From positions 1-47,487 of the forward strand of contig CAZDTP010000027.1 of assembly GCA_964508365.1 (NCBI GenBank): a stretch of DNA of 47,487 nucleotides. The letters are read 5' to 3'. This DNA comes from an uncultured archaeon (GTDB lineage: Archaea > Asgardarchaeota > Lokiarchaeia > Sigyniarchaeales > SOKP01). The position numbers were made by a program, and so were the translations under genes. Positions 1 to 9,190 of this stretch are shown piece after piece (the first letter of the stretch is position 1; each line of letters opens with the position of its first letter). The notes under the pieces are model-generated. The model saw only the letters and a list, made by a program, of their open reading frames with translations. It had not been told where the DNA came from and searched no databases.

Positions 1-89
1 AACATTTACAGTAAACATTGGTCTACAAAAAATTATATATCTCAAATCTATTTATATTATATAAAAACACGAAAAATAGATGTTTGAAA

Positions 90-716
90 ATGGGTTTTCT
101 TAAAGATATGAGTAATTGGCTCTCAGGAGGCAAGAAAAAAGATACTGTTCGTTCTGCAACCGTCAAACTTAAAGTATTTAACAAGAGATTGATGAGACAG
201 ACGAAGAAAATGGAAATTACAGCAAAACAAGCTCGAGATAAAGCTGTTAGATTACGAAAGGCTGGTGATATGGATGGATCCGAATTCCACGCACGAAATT
301 ATCTTCAAGTTAAAAAACAGGCTAGAGCAATTGACCATTTTAGAACGAACTTAGAAGGAATGGTGTTTAAACTTGAGCAAGCTAACGCAGTTAAAGATAT
401 TTCTGACATTATGACAGGCATCGCTGCTAGTTTAGGTGCTTTAAAGAACCAATTGTCAGTCCCCCAACTAACAGAATTAATGACCGAAATCGGAGTTGAT
501 ATGGAAGACTTTGAAGTAACACAAGAAATTACTTCGGATGGAATCGATGATATGACTTTAGATACTGCTGTCTCAGATAGTCAAGTAAAAGAAGTATTAG
601 GCGAAATCGATGCTGAGATTCAGGTTGAAGTTGGTGGAGCATTACCATCAATAGATCCTGATGGTAAAGTTAAAGAATTAGAAGAAGAGTTAAATAAATT
701 GAAATCACGAGATTAG
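90..716 (+). CDS. ESCRT-III protein, Vps2/24/46 (CHMP1-like) class
   Basis: All-helical Snf7-like protein. It has an amphipathic N-terminus MGFLKDMSNWLSGG, a basic N-half and acidic C-half, the segment HARNYLQVKKQARAIDHFRTNLEGMVFKLEQA resembling CHMP1 helices 1-2, and a MIM1-like C-terminal helix ELEEELNKLK. ATG at 90 is preferred over the track's start at 18. Confidence 0.85.
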   Translation: MGFLKDMSNWLSGGKKKDTVRSATVKLKVFNKRLMRQTKKMEITAKQARDKAVRLRKAGDMDGSEFHARNYLQVKKQARAIDHFRTNLEGMVFKLEQANAVKDISDIMTGIAASLGALKNQLSVPQLTELMTEIGVDMEDFEVTQEITSDGIDDMTLDTAVSDSQVKEVLGEIDAEIQVEVGGALPSIDPDGKVKELEEELNKLKSRD

Positions 717-1829: not shown

Positions 1830-1862
1830 CATACAATTCTAATTACACTCTAAATTTGAAAT

Positions 1863-2725
1863 GTGCTTAAATCCAAATATTCGAAACCGATTCTCTTTTT
1901 ATTTTTTATTGTATTTTTATTTTGGGTCTTTCTATCGCTCTCTCACTATCAATTCCTCATCTAGATTTAACGTATTTTATTCCTATTCGAGATGTAGGTA
2001 TTGAAATTGGTTTAATTTTCATTATAATTATGCCATTTTCTTCTATCATAGGAATGCTGATAGGTGGATATCTTTTCGCTCCTTTATTTCTTTACATTCA
2101 TAAAAAGATTTTCGGTTCTAAAGTCGAATACGGGATTTATCAAAAGGAATATAAAGATTTCAAATTCCTTACTGAGGGTTTATTCACTTCACTTATGACT
2201 ATCAACATATCTCTCCTTTTAACCACACCAATTATCATAGCATTATCCGTTGGTTCAGATCCAGACAGTTTTATTGATGAACTTACTACTTTTCTCGCCT
2301 TATTAATGTTTGCAGTTGGCATAGCAAGTAGCTTGTTTGCAACTACGTGATTCCTTATGGATTCTGGCATTTTGTATTCTAAATTAAAAAAAGCTAATGA
2401 TATACATAAGCCAATTGAAATTAGGTCTGTAGGGAGGTGGTATGGACAATTTTTGAAAGGATATGCTGGACTATCCGTCGTGTTCTCTTATATTGAATTT
2501 ATGGAGTTATTTATCCCTCAACTCGCTAATGATCTCTCTGTACCACTGTTTATTATGCTTTTGATTGTATTTGTACCATTTCCGTTGATAGTAGTTATTC
2601 CGCTAATTCCTGCTTTAATATTATTAGATCGTCTAAAAGAAAAGCGGAACAGATTCATAAGAGAAAAAGCGAGAAAATTCGGGATATCGTCTAACGCAGA
2701 AGTTACTTTTGAATTAAAAAGCTAA
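1863..2725 (+). pseudogene. Polytopic membrane protein interrupted by an in-frame TGA (2348-2350) and a probable -1 frameshift in the T-runs at ~1896-1923
   Basis: Track ORFs 1922-2350 and 2357-2725 are in the same frame, separated only by TGA-TTC-CTT (SSLFATT*FLMDSGILYSK). GTG at 1863 gives a natural N-terminus VLKSKYSKPILFLFFIVFLF that joins LGLSIALS if one T is restored. Confidence 0.6.
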
Positions 2726-2818
2726 GCTGAAAAACATATCTTTCTAAGTTTTATGTTAAAAGATTAAATTTTAATTTCTTAGTGTATTTTTCATATCATT
2801 AAAGAACTTAAATAAAAA

Positions 2819-2950
2819 GCGCTGCTAGTATAGTTCGGCTGATTCTTAATCAGTCGAGTATAATGGTTAGTATGCCAGGTTGCCAAGAGATTTTTACCTA
2901 AAAATTCTCGCAATAACTTGGCGACCCGGGTTCGATTCCCGGGCGGCGCA
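2819..2950 (+). tRNA. trnG-GCC: tRNA-Gly(GCC) with two introns (2834-2863 at position 15/16; 2886-2915 at 37/38)
   Basis: The acceptor stem GCGCTGC(2819-2825)/GCGGCGC(2943-2949) pairs fully. T-arm is CCGGG-TTCGATT-CCCGG, anticodon arm is CCAGG-TT-GCC-A/A-CTTGG. Removing both 30-nt introns gives a 72-nt cloverleaf with G15-C48. CCA is not encoded. Confidence 0.93.
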
Positions 2951-2951
2951 T
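2935..2951 (+). repeat. att/TSD-like direct repeat, left copy (tRNA-Gly 3' end)
   Basis: ATTCCCGGGCGGCGCAT, versus ATTTCCGGGTGGCGCAT at 3966-3982 (15/17 identical). Confidence 0.75.
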
Positions 2952-2983
2952 TCTTTTTATATATACATTATCCATACCAGAGC

Positions 2984-3015
2984 AATAATTATTTACCTCG
3001 GAGGTAAAAAATTCA
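2984..3015. repeat. 32-bp palindromic site, copy A
   Basis: AATAATTATTTACC-TCGG-AGGTAAAAAATTCA. Arms AATTATTTACCT/AGGTAAAAAATT are 11/12 complementary. It is 27/32 identical to 3899-3930. Confidence 0.75.
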
Positions 3016-3356
3016 AGAACAACGATAATTCTATTTTGGATTAAGATTACTAACCCATTTCTAAAATACTTCCAAAAAGGAAAGATGTTGGAAATCACTA
3101 CTCAATAATAGTTTAACCAGTATTCTTTTTTGGAGAATTCATCATTGAAAAGATAAAACTTTCATTTTGTTATAGTTAAATTGATAACCAAAATCGTAAA
3201 TTCATAATAAAATAATGATATAGCATATCATTAACTAAAGTAAATTTTAATCAAAATAAAAGAATTGAGAATAATGCAATTGAGGATCAGGTAATTCATT
3301 TCCATTGTTATTTGAATAAACTTCAATTTCTATAATATGAAATAACAAAAGAAAAA

Positions 3357-3551
3357 TTAAGGAGTAATCCTAACTTGCATAATTCTATGATTTGGAAAAA
3401 AATCGATTTTTCCTTCTTCCATTCCAGATATTAGTAATCCAGAATTCATTAATTTATAATCAGCTTTTTTTAGGATTATATCTGGTAAGTGAGAAGGTCT
3501 TTTATGACCTATCAACCAAATTTTAATTTCTGCTGCTTTATCCCATTCCAT
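3357..3551 (-). CDS. Small hypothetical protein (64 aa), predicted beta-rich, inside the tRNA-linked element
   Basis: Clean ATG-TAA ORF with protein-like composition in otherwise stop-rich AT-rich DNA. No family recognised. Confidence 0.55.
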   Translation of the reverse strand: MEWDKAAEIKIWLIGHKRPSHLPDIILKKADYKLMNSGLLISGMEEGKIDFFPNHRIMQVRITP

Positions 3552-3610
3552 TTTAAATTCAACAATAGAAAGTTTAATTATAATATAGAATTAGAAATTT
3601 AAAAACAATG

Positions 3611-3757
3611 TTAGTAATTCTTTAATATTTCTTCCTTAGATAATCCCATCTTTACTAATTCATTGATTTTATAATAAAGTCTCCTGAAATATGGATCACA
3701 TGGTCATAGTATATTTTGGTGTTTCCAGGGAGATTTTTTACTTTTATTATTTAACAT
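3611..3757 (-). pseudogene. Small ORF (48 codons) with an in-frame TGA at codon 18
   Basis: GGAGGA precedes ATG 3757. Reads MLNNKSKKSPWKHQNIL*PCDPYFRRLYYKINELVKMGLSKEEILKNY, with TGA at 3706-3704. Below the ORF-track length cutoff. Confidence 0.4.
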
Positions 3758-3898
3758 GATCCTCCTGATAAAAAATATAAGCCCTTAATTTATAAAGGAA
3801 AAGTCATTATTATTTTACTAATTTCGATAAGATTCATTGATAGATTGAACGAAATACAATGATATTCCCGGGTATTGTCGGACAATCTCTAAAAACTA

Positions 3899-3930
3899 AA
3901 TAATTATTTACCCTAAAGGTAAAAAATTCA
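3899..3930. repeat. 32-bp palindromic site, copy B
   Basis: AATAATAATTTACC-CTAA-AGGTAAAAAATTCA. Differs from copy A at one arm position and the 4-nt centre. Confidence 0.75.
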
Positions 3931-3965
3931 CTGGTGGTATATATATTGTATACTTTTGTCGGAAA

Positions 3966-3982
3966 ATTTCCGGGTGGCGCAT
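3966..3982 (+). repeat. att/TSD-like direct repeat, right copy (degenerate tRNA-Gly 3' end)
   Basis: ATTTCCGGGTGGCGCAT, a GC-rich word in AT-rich DNA, with two C-to-T differences from 2935-2951. Followed by a T-tract like the left copy. Confidence 0.75.
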
Positions 3983-4353
3983 ACCTTTTTTTATTTTACA
4001 GAATTTATTAAATAAAATTAAACTTTGTTAGATTATGAGAAACTAAAAGGTTTTTTCACTTGGATAATAAAGAAGTTGGTAGATAGTGGGACAAAAATGC
4101 AGATAGTTGGATTTCGATAGATTCAAATAGAAAACTATTGTTTTACAAATATTATAGTAAAACAACTAAACAATCATATTTGTATTAATTTTTACCATAA
4201 AGCTTACTAGTCTTTCTATTGATCAATTATTAGGAAATTAGCTCAACGGAATATCCTCGTCTCATCCAGATACCTATCTCACTTCGTGAAAGGTGTGTTT
4301 CACGATCTATATTACATGAATTCTAAAAATTTTAAAAAAAAAGGTTAAAATTT

Positions 4354-6048
4354 TTACGATCTTCTAACTATTGGTATCGGTTCTTTCAAGCCATAATGAA
4401 GCATAAAAAATCCCATTACTAAAACATAAAGCGCCAAACTTGGCCAAAAAGAAGCCCATGGTGCATCGAATAAATGGAGTCTTGCGGTACTGATATCGAT
4501 CCCTAATTGTACAAGCAACGGATTGGACAATCCAAGAAAGCCTATTGCTTCGAACAGCAAAATATTGAATGCCATGAATAATGGGAAATATGCAATTACT
4601 TTCTTTGTGGTTAATTTAAAGCTGTAATTTCCCTTACTGATTAATAAAGTGACTCCTGGGATCATATACATTGCCATAATGCTTATTATTACTAAAATAT
4701 TACTCCCTAAAATACTTAGGAATATAAAGAGCATTATAATACTAGGTACAATGAAAAGGATTACCATAAGCCCCAATACTAACTCTTTTACCCACCTATG
4801 AACTTTAGATAGATAACCAAATGATAATCCTATCACAATTCCTATGAGAACAGACAAGCTGCAAACTATTATCGATGTTGATACACCATACGCTAATAAT
4901 CCAAGTACATCGCGTCCATATTTAGTTTGTCCTAAGGGATGAGTCGCAGATGGCTGATCCCAAGCCCCTGGATAAATGCCCGTTACTTGCTGTAATGTCA
5001 ATGGCGTCAATATTTGTGGAAATATAGCAACAATAATACTAAACGCTACAATCGCTAATCCAATTATTGTTAATGGAGATTTTAAGCGATAAAGTGTAAA
5101 ATCTTTAAATGTCTGGTCTGTATTGAAGTCGTATCGAGCGCCTTCTTCAACCATTTGCTCGGTTCTCCCGAGGTATTTAGTAATAATTTTCGATCGGCTT
5201 TCTTCTAAGAAGTAATTGTAAATTGTGTAAAAGATGTTTGATAGCAATAGAATAATTGCGGGAAGTACGATTAGAATAAATACGCATGCCCTGACTAACC
5301 AGTAGTCACTATTTCGAATTGCACTCATAAAAAGATCAAAAAATCCATGTATTCCAAAGGTAACTTCGAGAAGGAAAATGCTGGTAATTAATATGCTTAA
5401 ATTAAAGATTATTTTCATGCTGTTGGATAAAATATGTTTTTCCTCTGATTTCTTCAAATAATTAGAACGAACTTGTCTTGTCGTGAGAAATAAAGTTAAC
5501 AGAAATAATATACAAGACGGTAAAAATGGATCTCCAAAGACTGAAAAAATTCCCAATTGATATACAAAAGTGTATTGGGCCCACATTGCTACGACAAACA
5601 TTGACATCGAAATTCCTAAAATAATGAGAATTTGAATCAATAGTTTGATCAATCTGTATCTAACTTTAACTGATAATATACCTAGTACAATACCTGTGAT
5701 TAAGCCTAAAACAATCGATAATATTGTAAATTCAATAGTTGCTGGAATTCTCGCAGTTAAAAGTTCAATTACTGGTTGATATGGTGCGATAGCCATAGAA
5801 ATCCCTAGATTTCCTGAAAAGAGATCAGAAAGATATCTAAAGAACTGGACAATCAACGGTTGATCGAGCCCTAATAAATGAAGCATCGTATAATATTCTT
5901 CTGCTGTAAAATTATGAGGTAGATATGCAAGAACTGGGTCACCGGGAAGTAATCGAATAAACAGAAAACTCAGAACCAATCCGAAAAAGAATGGTATGAT
6001 AGAGAGTAAAATGGTATAAATTATGTTTCTAATAACAACTTTTAACAT
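4354..6048 (-). CDS. Fused DppB/OppB-DppC/OppC-type ABC permease, both EAA loops apparently deleted
   Basis: N-half has LLPGDP, LGLDQPLIVQFFRYL and RIPATIE (DppB-like). C-half has PSATHPLGQTKYGRDV and EAIGFLG (DppC-like). Start set at MLKVVIRN (6048). Confidence 0.85.
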   Translation of the reverse strand: MLKVVIRNIIYTILLSIIPFFFGLVLSFLFIRLLPGDPVLAYLPHNFTAEEYYTMLHLLGLDQPLIVQFFRYLSDLFSGNLGISMAIAPYQPVIELLTARIPATIEFTILSIVLGLITGIVLGILSVKVRYRLIKLLIQILIILGISMSMFVVAMWAQYTFVYQLGIFSVFGDPFLPSCILFLLTLFLTTRQVRSNYLKKSEEKHILSNSMKIIFNLSILITSIFLLEVTFGIHGFFDLFMSAIRNSDYWLVRACVFILIVLPAIILLLSNIFYTIYNYFLEESRSKIITKYLGRTEQMVEEGARYDFNTDQTFKDFTLYRLKSPLTIIGLAIVAFSIIVAIFPQILTPLTLQQVTGIYPGAWDQPSATHPLGQTKYGRDVLGLLAYGVSTSIIVCSLSVLIGIVIGLSFGYLSKVHRWVKELVLGLMVILFIVPSIIMLFIFLSILGSNILVIISIMAMYMIPGVTLLISKGNYSFKLTTKKVIAYFPLFMAFNILLFEAIGFLGLSNPLLVQLGIDISTARLHLFDAPWASFWPSLALYVLVMGFFMLHYGLKEPIPIVRRS

Positions 6049-6168
6049 TTTATTCCGCTCGTTTTTTTTTAATGAATTTTGGCAGTACGTATCATTAAGA
6101 CAATTATGTATATAAATATAGCGGACTCTTAACATTACAAAAATATTTCCAAATAATAACAGATTTCG

Positions 6169-7014
6169 TTATAGAGTACTGAGAAAATTAGAAACCACTG
6201 AAGCTCTTGGGATCTTAACCTTGAAATAATTTTCAACTATCTCGTAAAGAAACTCTAAGTATGCTAATTGGATTTTAACGTTGTGAACATTCGCTATCTC
6301 TTCAATTACCTCTATAGAAATAAGTTTCTCTTTCTTTTTTAAATTTTTGACTCTATCAACAATAGTTTCAGAAAGTTCGTAAGTTTTTTGGATTCCATTA
6401 TGCAAATAAATAACGCTTGGAATAAGTTCGTATTCTTCTAAAAATTTTCTTACTAAAGTTCTTTCAATAGTGATCTTCTTTGGATTAAGAATATCCTCGT
6501 TATCCTGAAGAATTTGGTTGTTTTTTAGTACAATATAATCTTTAAAATTCTCGGGTTGATATTGTTCTTCTGATATTATCAGTATAGAGGCGTCAAAGGA
6601 ATTTTTCGTTATGTAATCAAAAAAATTGTGAACTTGATCAACCATAAATGCTTGATCAGTAAGTATCAATACTTTTTTCTTAAGAAAAATCGCTCGAATT
6701 ATGTTTACTATTAAGGAGGCTGTTAAATTAAGTTTGATAAGGCTCACATCAATTGCTTCTAATTGAGGAGGAGTTTCAGGTTCTTGAACTTGTGGGGAAG
6801 TTATTTCAGGAAGCTCTAGTTGAAAATCTGCTATGAAAGTGTCTCTTATTGTAAGATTTTTATCGATGTAAGCAACGAAAGAATGTTCACAAGTTATTCC
6901 TTCTGAGACATTTACTGCAAAAACTCCTCTTGCGGCTTTTTCCACTTCTTCCTCTGAGATTTCAATATAACCTCTATTTAAGCAAGATGGACATCGAACT
7001 TCGAGCTTCTTTAT
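6169..7014 (-). CDS. Hypothetical protein with an N-terminal Zn-binding motif (CPSC...CEH); apparent ATA start
   Basis: The frame stays open upstream of the track's GTG (6945) through IKKLEVRCPSCLNRGYIEIS to an in-frame TAA at 7017-7015. GAGGT at 7027-7023 lies 8 nt before ATA 7014. Confidence 0.7.
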   Translation of the reverse strand: MKKLEVRCPSCLNRGYIEISEEEVEKAARGVFAVNVSEGITCEHSFVAYIDKNLTIRDTFIADFQLELPEITSPQVQEPETPPQLEAIDVSLIKLNLTASLIVNIIRAIFLKKKVLILTDQAFMVDQVHNFFDYITKNSFDASILIISEEQYQPENFKDYIVLKNNQILQDNEDILNPKKITIERTLVRKFLEEYELIPSVIYLHNGIQKTYELSETIVDRVKNLKKKEKLISIEVIEEIANVHNVKIQLAYLEFLYEIVENYFKVKIPRASVVSNFLSTL

Positions 7015-7174
7015 TTATAAAAACCTCATTATTGTAATTTAAATCAATTTTAAAGATTTTCTCGCAGATACAATTAAATTTTAAACGATCAATTATATAA
7101 AGTTTAGCTGAGAGAAAAAATAAAAATTATTATAGAATATACAATTCTTTCAAGATTGTATAGTTTGTGAAAGG

Positions 7175-7654
7175 TTAAAACCTTTTTATCTTTGCATATT
7201 TCTTTTCAATCAGGTTAGCTATAAGTAATGAGATTAGTGTTGCTAAATTTTCAGAAATCAAAAATGCAATTACACTATCTAAAAAAATCAGACATATCCC
7301 GTAGGTACAGATAAATATAATAGCAAAAATAGGAAAAACTATTATTATCGGTCTAATAATGGGAAAATATAGTATTTTTTGAAATTTAGATGACTCCAAC
7401 CTTGATTTTTGAAATTGATTTCTGAATTTCTTCCTCTTTTCAACTTGGACAAAAGATTCAAATATAATAACTACACCAAAAAACAGAGCTATGGTTGTGC
7501 CAATCGGTATTAATATTACGACTACATAATTCCCTACTCCCAGTATATATTGAGCTAAAAATATAAACAAGACTTGAAAAATTCCACACGCACCGAATAG
7601 CATTAGAGCAATTGGTATGTATTCCTTTGATGTCCAGCGAAATCTTATCGGCAT
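7175..7654 (-). CDS. Hypothetical membrane protein (about 4 TM segments)
   Basis: Four hydrophobic stretches. Start moved to ATG 7654 because the longer track ORF overlaps tRNA-Val. Confidence 0.75.
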   Translation of the reverse strand: MPIRFRWTSKEYIPIALMLFGACGIFQVLFIFLAQYILGVGNYVVVILIPIGTTIALFFGVVIIFESFVQVEKRKKFRNQFQKSRLESSKFQKILYFPIIRPIIIVFPIFAIIFICTYGICLIFLDSVIAFLISENLATLISLLIANLIEKKYAKIKRF

Positions 7655-7677
7655 TTTAATCCTTGTATTTTGTAATA

Positions 7678-7754
7678 TGGTGGGCCCGGCGCGATTTGAA
7701 CGCACGACCTTCTGCACGTCAAGCGGACGTCATACCGAGCTAGACCACGGGCCC
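7678..7754 (-). tRNA. trnV-GAC: tRNA-Val(GAC), CCA encoded, no intron
   Basis: Reverse complement is GGGCCCGTGGTCTAGCTCGGTATGACGTCCGCTTGACGTGCAGAAGGTCGTGCGTTCAAATCGCGCCGGGCCCACCA. Complete cloverleaf with one C29-A41 mismatch. Confidence 0.95.
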
Positions 7755-7972
7755 GTGATTGTTTTCTCTAATTTAAGCATAAAAAATACTAAAATTTGAG
7801 ATAAATAATTTATATTATTAAAAAATAAATATTTTATCAATCTTCGAAGAATTTCGAATTACTTCTTATCAAACATTTAATTAAATTTAAGGAGTGTTAA
7901 TTTAATGATAAAAAAAGAGTTAATTATTCTAATGTCAATTAAAAAAATAATAAAATATTAAAAAAAATAGAA

Positions 7973-9190
7973 TTATGGTTTTTTTTCTCTTAAAGCTCTA
8001 ACCATCGGCACTTCTTTTCCTGATAATATTTCTAGCATAGCACCCCCACCAGTAGAAATAAAGGAAACATCTTGAGCATAACCTGACATTTCTGCTGCAG
8101 TTCCCATTTCTCCTCCACCAATTACAGATAGAGCTCCATTTTTTTTAGTTGCTAATGCCATTGCTTCAGCCATATCAAAGGTACCTTTTCTAAATACTTC
8201 TTTTTCAAAAATACCAGGTGGTCCGTTAGCAATAATTGTTTTTGCTTTCATTATAATTTCTTTGAATTCTTCTGTAGTTTTAGGACCTATATCACCAGTT
8301 ACAGAGTTGTAATCCTTTAATTCACTGATAGAGATTGCTTTACGGTTCCCGTTTTCTTCAATTATTAAGTCCTTTGGCAAAATGATCTTGTCTTTAAATC
8401 TTTTGTAGGTTTCCTTAATATCATCCTTTGCTTTATCTAAATCTTTTACTATTGCTGCTCGATTTGGTTCTCCGGTTTCAACTCCTATCGCCTCAAAGAT
8501 TAATATAGCTGTTAGACCAGAGCAGAGTGCGTAATCTAATTTATCATTTTCAAAATTGAATTTCATTGCTTTAAACTTATCTAAAGCTTTAGCTCCTCCA
8601 ATAAGCATAACCATTGGCCTTTCAGGAGACTCTAAAATTTTACTCATGTATTCAAATTCCTTAACAGTTGTAGGACCTGCTAGTAAGGTAGGCCATCCTA
8701 TTATCGAAGGTTGTGCTCTATGGGCTGCTCCAAATGCATCTGCGATGAAGTAATCAAACAATGGAGAAAGAGTTTGAATCATTTCTAATTTTCCAGCTTC
8801 AGAGAAGTCTTTAAAAGTTTTATTTTCCAAATCCCAAGTGCGTACATTATTTAGGACTAATACTTCACCCACTTTAAGATCTCGAATTGCATTAATTGCC
8901 TTTTCTCCGAAGACATCTTCAACATATTTAACAGGGCGATCTAACAATTTTCTTATTTCTGCAGCGTGCATTTCTAAAGATGTAAAATCTTTATCACCTG
9001 GACGAGATTGGTGTGCCATAATTACTACAGCACTATCTTTAAGTTCTTCTAATGAGGGGATTAGCGCGTGAATACGAGGTGATTCGCGAATTCTGTTATT
9101 TTCGATGTCGATATTAGAGTTAATATCGACTCTCATCAAAATTTTCTTTCCTTTTAAATCAACATCTTTATAAGATTTATAATCAAACAT
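7973..9190 (-). CDS. pgk: Phosphoglycerate kinase
   Basis: MRVDINSNI, AHQSRPG, DAFGAAHRA, IGGAKALDK, ANGPPGIFE and ISTGGGA motifs. Confidence 0.97.
   Translation of the reverse strand: MFDYKSYKDVDLKGKKILMRVDINSNIDIENNRIRESPRIHALIPSLEELKDSAVVIMAHQSRPGDKDFTSLEMHAAEIRKLLDRPVKYVEDVFGEKAINAIRDLKVGEVLVLNNVRTWDLENKTFKDFSEAGKLEMIQTLSPLFDYFIADAFGAAHRAQPSIIGWPTLLAGPTTVKEFEYMSKILESPERPMVMLIGGAKALDKFKAMKFNFENDKLDYALCSGLTAILIFEAIGVETGEPNRAAIVKDLDKAKDDIKETYKRFKDKIILPKDLIIEENGNRKAISISELKDYNSVTGDIGPKTTEEFKEIIMKAKTIIANGPPGIFEKEVFRKGTFDMAEAMALATKKNGALSVIGGGEMGTAAEMSGYAQDVSFISTGGGAMLEILSGKEVPMVRALREKKP

What the first reader, a model, noticed from the sequence alone, without database searches (positions are those of the whole stretch)
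2935..3982. ~1-kb integrase-less element at the tRNA-Gly 3' end with a direct repeat and symmetrical palindromic ends
Seen: a 17-bp direct repeat of the tRNA 3' end (2935-2951 and 3966-3982, 15/17). Two 32-bp palindromic sites (2984-3015 and 3899-3930, 27/32) sit 32 and 35 nt inside the repeats. Further inverted motifs are TATACATTAT (2962-2971) versus ATATTGTATA (3943-3952), 9/10, and ATACCA versus TGGTAT. No recombinase gene lies inside. Established: tRNA 3' ends are targets of tyrosine-integrase elements and of casposons (TIR plus target duplication). Inference: this is a MITE-like satellite mobilised in trans, or the collapsed scar of a larger island. The palindromes would be recombinase or accessory-factor sites.
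Basis: partly seen in the sequence, partly recalled or inferred. Interest (0 to 1): 0.7.

Follow-up and report, generated by a model that had tools for sequence, protein, structure and literature searches.

The report
Decayed integrative element at tRNA-Gly
A 1,031-bp insertion behind a glycine tRNA gene of a Lokiarchaeial (Asgard) genome is the shrunken, integrase-less remnant of a family of ~12-kb integrating mobile elements; it is an ordinary kind of genomic scar, though its hairpin-bearing end structure has not, as far as I know, been described.

Summary
The 17-nt tRNA 3'-end repeat (15/17), the two 32-nt hairpin sites (28/32) and the inverted end motifs are at the stated coordinates, and none occurs by chance in shuffles.

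The 1,031 bp is a real insertion. Orthologous loci in sister genomes (for example G008) run from the tRNA-Gly(GCC) 3' end straight into the DNA that follows the right-hand repeat here.

The same end module, a 32-nt arm 'x' plus hairpin 'P', follows tRNA-Gly(GCC/UCC/CCC) and tRNA-Glu(CUC) genes in several other Promethearchaeia genomes and metagenome contigs. One metagenome contig (L189) holds a complete 11.8-kb relative. It is bounded by the same ends and a tRNA-end repeat, and carries a truncated tyrosine-integrase gene. Window 3578-3982 is homologous to its right end.

The window copy has no integrase, and its genome has no homologue of that integrase and no Cas1. A small end-proximal gene is frameshifted. 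A 96%-identical sister strain carries a differently rearranged version at the same site.

Best reading: an in-situ decayed remnant that keeps both att sites (CIME-like), not an amplifying MITE and not a casposon derivative. The role of the P hairpins is inferred, not shown. Interest is modest.

The parts
2819..2950 (+). tRNA-Gly(GCC) gene with two 30-nt introns (2834-2863, 2886-2915). It is the integration target, and attL keeps it intact.
   Evidence: Spliced in silico, ARAGORN calls a 72-nt tRNA-Gly(GCC). Orthologous tRNA genes are present in relatives.
2935..2951 (+). attL core: tRNA positions about 58-73 plus 1 nt; left copy of the direct repeat.
   Evidence: The identity to attR ends exactly where the empty-site flank begins.
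2952..2983 (+). Arm 'x': the outermost 32 nt of the element's left end. It is an imperfect inverted repeat of arm 'y'.
   Evidence: Conserved directly behind tRNA-Gly(UCC/GCC/CCC) genes in G017, G005, G136, G127, G102 and L189. x versus reverse-complement y alignment.
2984..3015 (+). Hairpin site P_L (stem TTTACC/GGTAAA with an A/T extension).
   Evidence: Seventeen distinct homologous P copies have an invariant stem and a loop of 5, 6 or 14 nt.
3016..3313 (+). Module 'B': non-coding, AT-rich element DNA joined to P.
   Evidence: 87% identical to G017:C23, where it is joined as A-P-B. About 70% identical to G089:C51 / L184, where it is joined as x-P-B.
3357..3551 (-). ORF64, a 64-aa open frame inside module 'C' (about 3297-3645). 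It is the only intact candidate cargo gene; function unknown.
   Evidence: Open with the same stop in 5 copies at two different tRNA-Gly genes. Only 5 protein clusters, all 64 aa, among 5.8 billion. No Pfam, PHROG or Atlas match. AlphaFold2 gives four beta strands at pLDDT 76, with no fold match.
3612..3759 (-). Pseudogene of a small end-proximal element gene (53 aa where intact), with at least two frameshifts here.
   Evidence: Intact in L185 80..241(-). Only residues 22-47 are found in one frame at 3620-3697(-), 65% identity, E 1.4e-5. Frames read.
3742..3898 (+). Arm 'A': conserved right sub-terminal region. It holds an invariant TATA-like box (about 3786-3797) about 27 nt upstream of the small gene's ATG, and a TTGTCGG motif that recurs in y.
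   Evidence: Four-way alignment with L189, L185 and G017:C23. The repeat TTGTCGGAMAAT at 3875-3889 / 3956-3970 is family D10.
3899..3930 (+). Hairpin site P_R.
   Evidence: Its TTTACC-loop-GGTAAA core is identical to the P of L189, L185 and G017:C23.
3931..3965 (+). Arm 'y': the outermost 35 nt of the right end, an inverted copy of x. It ends in TTTGTCGG, an imperfect copy of the T-stem 5' strand (the attP-derived half of attR).
   Evidence: The same y plus att' is seen in L189, L185 and L014.
3966..3982 (+). attR core: displaced copy of the tRNA 3' end (15/17; both differences are C-to-T).
   Evidence: It is followed by the DNA that directly follows the tRNA in empty-site genomes.
3983..4281 (+). 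Original chromosomal flank. It includes the decayed start (about 4060-4113) of the gene that follows the tRNA in relatives (MDDKEVGKYWDENAENW...).
   Evidence: Aligned to G008, G009, G015 and G017 downstream of their tRNA.

Best explanation
Window 2952-3982 is the remnant of an integrative element that entered the 3' end of tRNA-Gly(GCC) by tyrosine-integrase site-specific recombination and then shrank and rearranged where it sits. In this element family the attP core is a copy of roughly tRNA positions 52/58-73. The core is flanked on both sides by inverted arms: x or y (about 32 nt), a hairpin-forming palindrome P, and in some members about 20 more nt. Recombination, probably in the T-loop between the symmetric T-stem halves, rebuilt an intact tRNA at attL (2935-2951). 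It displaced the original 3' end to attR (3966-3982). Deletions and exchanges, several with a break at the edge of P, then removed the integrase and most cargo. What remains is x-P-B, ORF64, a frameshifted small gene with its promoter arm A, and P-y. Shown: the insertion, the att duplication, the family relationship, the integrase remnants in larger relatives, and the lack of an integrase here. Inferred: the crossover point, the order of decay events, and the role of P and the arms as protein-binding or cruciform-forming sites for assembling the recombination complex. Both att sites survive, so the remnant could in principle be excised by a cognate integrase supplied in trans (CIME-like). In this genome none is present, so it is most likely immobile.
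For: Empty site: in G008:C22 the flanks are 90% and 82% identical to the window, and the tRNA 3' end is followed directly by window 3983 onward. G009, G014, G015 and G004 also lack the insert. The interior matches only 6 of the other 134 family genomes at E<=1e-8 and has no second copy in its own genome. The x-P end follows tRNA-Gly(UCC) in G017, G005, G136 and G127, tRNA-Gly(GCC) in G102 and L182/L192, tRNA-Gly(CCC) in L189, and tRNA-Glu(CUC) in G150. L189 is a complete 11.8-kb element: tRNA-Gly(CCC), x-P, a PF00589 integrase remnant (E 2.9e-10), then A-P-y and a 14/15 att'. Window 3578-3982 matches L189 11514-11916 at 72% over 409 nt, and window 2921-2998 matches L189 94-171 at 86%. L187 has the same integrase remnant about 1 kb from an A-P-y-att-x-P junction. 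Full-length 339-340-aa homologues keep the motifs GARISE, NPHAFR and a C-terminal Tyr. attP-type junctions (A-P-y-att-x-P-B) occur in G089:C51, L184 and L187. att' matches the local tRNA in each case: GCC here, UCC in L014, CCC in L189. Decay: the small gene is frameshifted, and the genome has no integrase homologue (best tblastn E 0.13). Its only PF00589 hit is one 326-aa frame that matches PF00589 about as strongly as the single best hit in each relative searched, so it is probably a housekeeping Xer-type recombinase. In sister strain L192 (96% identity) x-P and module C are as diverged as the flanks, but a different segment lies between P and C and the right end is missing.
Against: No member with both the x-P ends and an intact integrase was found; the link rests on two truncated integrase copies. 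The full-length homologues (L190, L191) lie on contigs without recognisable x, P or a tRNA. No circular or excised form is demonstrated: the attP-type junction in G089 sits on a chromosomal contig, so it could be a tandem array. The att core is reversed relative to the element body in some copies, which a simple integrase model explains only by adding an inversion between the inverted arms. Two other very small derivatives keep an x-P left end and a y-att' right end (G150, 1.4 kb with a Fic gene; G005, 0.5 kb with ORF64). Retention of both ends may therefore not be accidental.
Confidence: 0.78

Rival explanations
1. The 1-kb unit is a functional non-autonomous mini-element (a CIME/MITE-like satellite) that arrived at this tRNA as a unit, mobilised in trans by the integrase of a full-length relative.
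For: Both att sites and both x/y-P ends are retained. Independent small derivatives of similar build exist: G150, 1.4 kb, x-P / Fic gene / A-P-y / att'; and G005:C163, about 0.5 kb, x-P / ORF64 / y / att'. ORF64-bearing elements sit at two different tRNA-Gly genes. A mini sub-element that excises is documented for another Asgard integrative plasmid, mini-Yucahu-i (PMC11529989).
Against: No second copy of this unit exists in its own genome or in 135 family genomes. The sister strain shares x-P and module C at flank-level divergence but differs elsewhere, which points to in-situ rearrangement rather than arrival as a finished unit. An internal gene is frameshifted. The genome has no cognate integrase.
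Confidence: 0.13
2. It is a casposon-derived, or other TIR-plus-target-site-duplication, transposon remnant. In that case the tRNA-end repeat is a duplication made by staggered cleavage, not an att.
For: There are inverted end arms of about 60-85 nt, a flanking direct repeat of fairly constant length (about 14-18 nt) that ends at the tRNA 3' end, and interiors found in both orientations relative to the tRNA. Casposons are known to target tRNA 3' ends (general knowledge; review PMC9939771 listed, not read).
Against: No Cas1 (PF01867) was found in this genome or in G127, G102, G089 or G150. None of the ten longest ORFs of the complete 11.8-kb relative matches Cas1 or a DNA polymerase in Pfam; the only match is a tyrosine-integrase remnant. 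Junction copies carry 22-25 nt of tRNA-like core, longer than the 17-nt repeat, as expected for an attP. The inner half of attR is an imperfect T-arm copy, typical of attP-derived sequence.
Confidence: 0.03
3. It is an IS200/IS605-type palindrome-associated element (PATE), moved as single-stranded DNA by an HUH transposase that recognises the sub-terminal hairpins.
For: There are two sub-terminal hairpins in the same orientation, 32 and 35 nt from the ends. Loop length varies while the stem is invariant, which fits a hairpin read in single-stranded or extruded form.
Against: IS200/IS605 elements make no long flanking repeat and do not target tRNA ends (general knowledge). None of the relatives' ORFs scanned against Pfam or PHROGs matched a TnpA/TnpB-type transposase family. 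The element occurs as a single copy.
Confidence: 0.02
4. It is not mobile DNA at all: a local duplication of the tRNA 3' end plus chance palindromes in AT-rich spacer.
For: The genome is 32% G+C, so short AT-rich repeats are common (many weak families).
Against: Both repeats reached 0 of 100 shuffles. Empty sites exist in relatives. The ends and interior are homologous to elements at other tRNAs in other genera.
Confidence: 0.01

Closest known systems
Tyrosine-integrase integrative elements and proviruses at archaeal tRNA 3' ends (pNOB8-type, integrase not split). In Asgard: HeimV1 next to tRNA-Gly(CCC) and aloposons at tRNA sites (PMC8813620), and Yucahu-i in Atabeyarchaeia (PMC11529989).
   Same: Insertion at a tRNA 3' end with duplication of the tRNA end and an intact tRNA at attL. 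Empty sites exist in relatives. The family carries a PF00589 integrase that lies inside the element rather than across the att.
   Different: The window copy has lost the integrase. The att core lies between inverted arms that each hold a conserved hairpin palindrome, a layout not mentioned in the passages I searched in those two papers. No nucleotide or integrase relative was found in IMG/VR.
CIMEs (cis-mobilisable elements derived from ICEs by deletion, Streptococcus; recalled from memory, not checked here) and mini-Yucahu-i (PMC11529989).
   Same: att-flanked DNA without its own integrase, derived from a larger integrase-bearing element. In principle it is excisable in trans.
   Different: Mobilisation has not been shown here, and no helper integrase is present in the same genome.
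Casposons (Cas1-solo self-synthesising transposons).
   Same: tRNA 3'-end target, terminal inverted repeats, and a flanking repeat of about 15 nt.
   Different: No Cas1 and no polymerase. There is a tyrosine-integrase remnant instead, and attP-like junctions with a longer core.
IS200/IS605 PATEs and integron attC cassettes (hairpin-defined units).
   Same: Short cargo bounded by conserved hairpin-forming sites. Module joints fall at the hairpin edge.
   Different: There is a tRNA-end att duplication, no HUH transposase or integron integrase was found, and the element is not arrayed or amplified.

Membership tests
tRNA-targeting tyrosine-integrase integrative element | Insertion bounded by a direct repeat identical to a segment of the target tRNA gene, with an intact tRNA at one junction | tested here: met
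   17-nt repeat at 15/17, 0 of 100 shuffles. The tRNA is intact after intron removal.
tRNA-targeting tyrosine-integrase integrative element | Empty-site allele in related genomes | tested here: met
   G008, G009, G014, G015 and G004: the tRNA is followed directly by the right-hand flank.
tRNA-targeting tyrosine-integrase integrative element | Integrase gene carried by the element | tested here: not met
   The window insert has none: no ORF over 66 aa and no tblastn match. Larger relatives L189 and L187 carry N-terminally truncated PF00589 genes.
tRNA-targeting tyrosine-integrase integrative element | attP junction (right end, core, left end) in an unintegrated form | tested here: inconclusive
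   A-P-y-att-x-P-(B or a second inward-facing arm) junctions occur in G089:C51, L184 and L187. G089's lies on a chromosomal contig, so tandem copies are not excluded.
CIME-like non-autonomous integrative element | Both att sites retained, no recombinase inside | tested here: met
CIME-like non-autonomous integrative element | Excision or integration driven in trans by a cognate integrase | not testable with these tools
   This needs reads spanning a circle junction, or an excision assay. No cognate integrase is present in this genome.
MITE | Many near-identical short copies dispersed in a genome | tested here: not met
   There is a single copy in the 4.07-Mb genome. The P and x motifs occur nowhere else in it.
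Casposon | Cas1 casposase (and usually PolB) in the element or the genome | tested here: not met
   PF01867 is absent from G000, G127, G102, G089 and G150. Pfam gave no Cas1 or polymerase match for the ten longest ORFs of the 11.8-kb relative.
Casposon | Terminal inverted repeats plus a fixed-length target-site duplication | tested here: inconclusive
   The inverted arms x/y-P are present and the repeat is 14-18 nt in four copies. Junction cores are 22-25 nt, and attR has an attP-like inner half.
IS200/IS605 PATE | Sub-terminal hairpins, no flanking repeat, Y1 HUH transposase partner | tested here: not met
   Hairpins are present, but a 17-nt flanking repeat exists, and none of the relatives' ORFs scanned matched an HUH transposase family.

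The most novel reading that the evidence does not exclude
The P hairpins may not be mere accessory sites. They could be secondary recombination or breakage sites at which modules are exchanged between elements. The joints x-P-B, A-P-B and x-P-other arm, and the deletions, all fall at the edge of P. Because the attP core sits inside a quasi-palindrome, it could be flipped, letting one element family insert its body in either orientation and into several tRNA species. That would make this a cassette-shuffling integrative system in Asgard archaea whose minimal products are 0.5-1.4-kb single-gene units (ORF64, Fic).
Probability: 0.15. Interest if true: 0.6.

Novelty: new member of a known kind. 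Interest (0 to 1): 0.33.

Why it matters
The finding marks the tRNA-Gly(GCC) 3' end as a hypervariable integration hot spot in this Lokiarchaeial genus: at least three different inserts occupy it in close relatives. It also defines the end signature (x arm, P hairpin, A arm) of an apparently undescribed Promethearchaeia integrative-element family that uses tRNA-Gly and tRNA-Glu genes. That signature can be used to delimit islands in fragmented Asgard MAGs, where contigs often break at these elements. The finding does not change how integration is understood. The only unusual aspect is the hairpin-flanked, quasi-palindromic attP and the recurrence of very small single-gene derivatives.

Tried and rejected
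- ARAGORN and Rfam on the unspliced region did not call the tRNA. This was solved by removing the introns.
- The genome-wide scan for the P pattern in 185,579 species genomes gave mostly chance hits in AT-rich bacteria; only five Asgard hits were real.
- The IMG/VR scans found nothing related: 19 chance hits for P, one for the A-P motif, and none for the integrase.
- G127:C61 and G102:C18 were chance matches.
- The contigs with full-length integrase homologues (L190, L191) showed no x, P or tRNA nearby.
- The 332-aa ORF next to A-P-B in G017:C23 is not a recognisable integrase.
- The 541-aa and 538-aa ORFs near two copies are unrelated to each other.
- ORF64 and the 53-aa protein had no Pfam, PHROG or Atlas relatives. 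An AlphaFold2 model of ORF64 (pLDDT 76) had no PDB fold match.
- Codon-level comparison of ORF64 copies (about 5 synonymous to 13 non-synonymous changes) does not settle whether it is under selection.
- The casposon, PATE and chance-repeat readings were considered and rejected for the reasons given under the rival explanations.
Full report
**Names used for the parts.** In window order:
- tRNA-Gly(GCC), 2819-2950
- attL core, 2935-2951
- arm x, 2952-2983
- hairpin P_L, 2984-3015
- module B, 3016-3313
- module C, about 3297-3645, containing ORF64 at 3357..3551 (minus strand)
- a small pseudogene, about 3612-3759 (minus strand)
- arm A, 3742-3898
- hairpin P_R, 3899-3930
- arm y, 3931-3965
- attR core, 3966-3982
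- the old chromosomal flank, from 3983

**1.
- The region was read directly.
- The repeat finder gives the 32-nt pair 2984-3015 / 3899-3930 at 88% (28/32) in direct orientation.
- Neither pattern appears in any of 100 dinucleotide-preserving shuffles of the window.
- Both 32-mers fold as DNA hairpins: -5.8 and -5.2 kcal/mol, z -4.8 and -3.3.
- The tRNA is missed by ARAGORN and only grazed by Rfam because it has two 30-nt introns. Spliced in silico, it is a canonical 72-nt tRNA-Gly(GCC).
- The repeat covers tRNA positions about 58-73 plus one base.

**2. It is an insertion.** I searched 40 relatives with window 2750-4350 and aligned the flanks.
- In G008:C22 the upstream genes (90% identity) and downstream genes (82%) are syntenic. 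The tRNA 3' end there runs straight into the sequence that follows attR in the window.
- G009, G014, G015 and G004 likewise lack the 1 kb.
- The inserted length is 1,031 bp (2952-3982, or equivalently 2935-3965).
- G017:C38 carries a different insert of about 0.5 kb at the same tRNA. It ends in a 39-45-nt repeat of the tRNA 3' part. G002 has yet other DNA there. The site is therefore a hot spot.
- The interior has no second copy in its own 4.07-Mb genome, and the x and P motifs occur nowhere else in it.
- Besides the window's own genome, only 6 of the other 134 family genomes match the interior at E<=1e-8.

**3. The ends define a family.**
- The x-P module lies directly behind tRNA-Gly(UCC) in G017:C78, G005:C163, G136:C169 and G127:C54. 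It lies behind tRNA-Gly(GCC) in G102:C20, which belongs to another genus.
- A metagenome scan with a conserved A-P motif returned further members.
- L182 shows the same intron-bearing tRNA-Gly(GCC) occupied by x-P followed by a different inner arm.
- L185 shows a right end A-P-y-att' like the window's.
- L184 and L187 show junctions of the form A-P-y-core-x-P, as in G089:C51.
- G150:C118 (Promethearchaeia ABR03) has a 1.4-kb unit behind tRNA-Glu(CUC). It consists of x-P, one Fic-domain gene (PF02661, E 2.7e-19), A-P-y, and a decayed copy of the tRNA end.
- G005:C163 has a 0.5-kb unit: x, a degenerate P, a GNAT gene fragment, ORF64, y, and a 14/15 att' matching tRNA-Gly(UCC).
- Record titles place these genomes in Promethearchaeota/Promethearchaeia (Lokiarchaeia). 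One P-bearing hit is labelled Odinarchaeota.

**4. A full-length relative carries a tyrosine integrase.**
- L189 (12.4 kb) holds tRNA-Gly(CCC) at 53-124 and x-P at its 3' end. Eleven kilobases further on it holds A-P-y and a 14/15 repeat of the tRNA end.
- Of its ten longest ORFs, one matches Pfam, and that match is PF00589 (183 aa, E 2.9e-10).
- Window 3578-3982 aligns to L189 11514-11916 (72% over 409 nt). Window 2921-2998 aligns to L189 94-171 (86%).
- L187 has the same integrase gene about 1 kb inside its junction.
- Both integrase copies lack the N-terminal half. Full-length homologues of 339-340 aa (55-59% identity) in G051 and G045 show the catalytic-domain motifs. Their contigs show no x, P or tRNA.
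- The tie between this integrase and these ends is therefore strong but rests on two decayed copies.

**5. The window copy is decayed.**
- It has no integrase. tblastn of the full-length integrases against the whole genome gives nothing better than E 0.13.
- The genome's single PF00589 match is one 326-aa frame that scores like the best hit in each relative searched, so it is probably a Xer-type housekeeping recombinase.
- A small gene that starts just inside arm A is intact in L185 (53 aa). It sits behind an invariant TATA-like box and a purine-rich AGGAGG stretch just upstream of the ATG. In the window it needs at least two frame changes, and only residues 22-47 are recognisable.
- ORF64 stays open in all five copies, but its coding status is unproven.

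**6. A close sister strain shows rearrangement in place.**
- Contigs that encode a 92%-identical ORF64 come from the same locus.
- L192 is 96% identical to the window through the flanks, the tRNA, x and P (to window 3013), and again through module C.
- Between P and C, however, it has a different inner arm plus a small zinc-finger-like ORF instead of B.
- After C it runs through 252 unrelated bases into window 4282. It has no A-P-y-att' and none of window 3983-4281.
- Other contigs of that population continue into further element genes, including Alba and a PFL-like fragment also seen on G017:C23.
- The parts shared by the two strains are as diverged as the flanks. I therefore infer one older insertion, followed by different deletions and exchanges in each lineage.

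**7. What P and the arms may do (inference).**
- Across 17 distinct copies the stem TTTACC/GGTAAA is invariant, while the loop is 5, 6 or 14 nt. This fits a hairpin or cruciform better than a duplex site with fixed half-site spacing.
- Joints between different modules fall at the edge of P: x-P-B in the window and G089, A-P-B in G017:C23, x-P-other arm in L192, L189, G127 and G102, and the deletion in G017:C78.
- A-P-B is what recombination between the two P copies of an A-P-y-core-x-P-B junction would leave.
- x and y are imperfect inverted repeats, so the core sits in a quasi-palindrome. In some copies the core is reversed relative to the element body. An inversion between the arms would explain this.
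- The inner half of attR (…TTTGTCGG…) is an imperfect T-stem copy, and the same motif recurs in A. These could be integrase half-sites.
- None of this is tested.

**8. Rivals.**
- Casposon: there is no Cas1 in this genome or in four other carrier genomes, and no Cas1 or polymerase match in L189.
- PATE: there is a flanking repeat, and none of the relatives' ORFs I scanned matched an HUH transposase family.
- MITE-like amplification: only a single copy exists.
- A trans-mobilised mini-element is the one serious rival, because small derivatives with both ends recur. I give it about 0.13.

**9. Comparison with the literature.**
- Integration of Asgard elements next to tRNA genes by integrases is known. 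HeimV1 sits next to tRNA-Gly(CCC), and aloposons sit at tRNA sites (PMC8813620).
- Integrative plasmids with a nested mini-element are known in Atabeyarchaeia (PMC11529989).
- A putative Asgard satellite described in 2026 is a different thing: a circular element linked to a virus.
- I found no description of the x-P-A end structure in the passages I searched in those papers. This is not an exhaustive literature check.

**Verdict.** This is a real, well-delimited, integrase-less remnant of a tRNA-targeting tyrosine-integrase element. It is a new member of a known kind and of modest interest.

Noticed in passing
window 2819-2950; L016, L015, L008, L019, L018, L020: The orthologous tRNA-Gly(GCC) gene carries different intron sets in sister species. 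The window, G004 and G015 have one pair of introns. G008 and G002 have a single intron elsewhere. G009 and G017 have a D-loop intron plus another. The repeated tRNA fragment behind the G017:C38 insert keeps the 3' end of the window-type second intron, although the functional G017 gene lacks that intron.
   Followed up: partly
window 1857-2742: The two small membrane-protein ORFs upstream of the tRNA (1922..2350 and 2357..2725) are absent from G008, G004 and G002, where window 1857 abuts 2742. They are at least partly present in G005, G014, G009 and G015. This is a second indel next to the hot spot.
   Followed up: no
window 4060-4113: This is the decayed start of the gene that follows the tRNA in relatives (MDDKEVGKYWDENAENW..., probably a methyltransferase). 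In G008 it is also truncated.
   Followed up: no
L015 (G017:C38) 6784-7320: A different insert of about 0.5 kb occupies the same tRNA. It has two small ORFs and a 39-45-nt tRNA 3' repeat, and no x or P motifs.
   Followed up: partly
L175 (G150:C118) 6571-8005: A 1.4-kb att-flanked unit behind tRNA-Glu(CUC) has a Fic/DOC-family protein (294 aa, HPFGDGNGR motif) as its only gene.
   Followed up: partly
L011 (G017:C23) 5612-6610 minus strand: A 332-aa ORF next to the A-P-B joint has CxxC, AHSIQKS and FCNHHD motifs and no Pfam match (only a weak PHROG hit of unknown function, E 0.007). It may be an uncharacterised nuclease-like family.
   Followed up: no
window 3091-3117; L011; L023: A tiny conserved frame (about 7-8 codons, MLEITTQ / MMLGFTTQ / MMLGIITK) lies behind an AAGGAA-like stretch inside module B. 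It is kept even in the copy that is only 70% identical.
   Followed up: no
L017 (G005:C125) 6272-6712: G005 has a diverged extra copy (66% identity) of the 258-aa gene (window 6169..6945) between the tRNA and the permease gene.
   Followed up: no
window 18-716 and L192 genes: The first ORF of the window corresponds to the gene annotated Snf7/ESCRT-III (PF03357) on sister contig L192. That contig continues into Vps4, ESCRT-II and EAP30 genes, so the hot spot lies about 2 kb from the Asgard ESCRT cluster.
   Followed up: no
L183 2-1513 minus strand: A DDE_Tnp_1 transposase (an IS) sits inside the element at tRNA-Gly(UCC). This probably explains why the matching G127 contig breaks 370 nt after P.
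   Followed up: no
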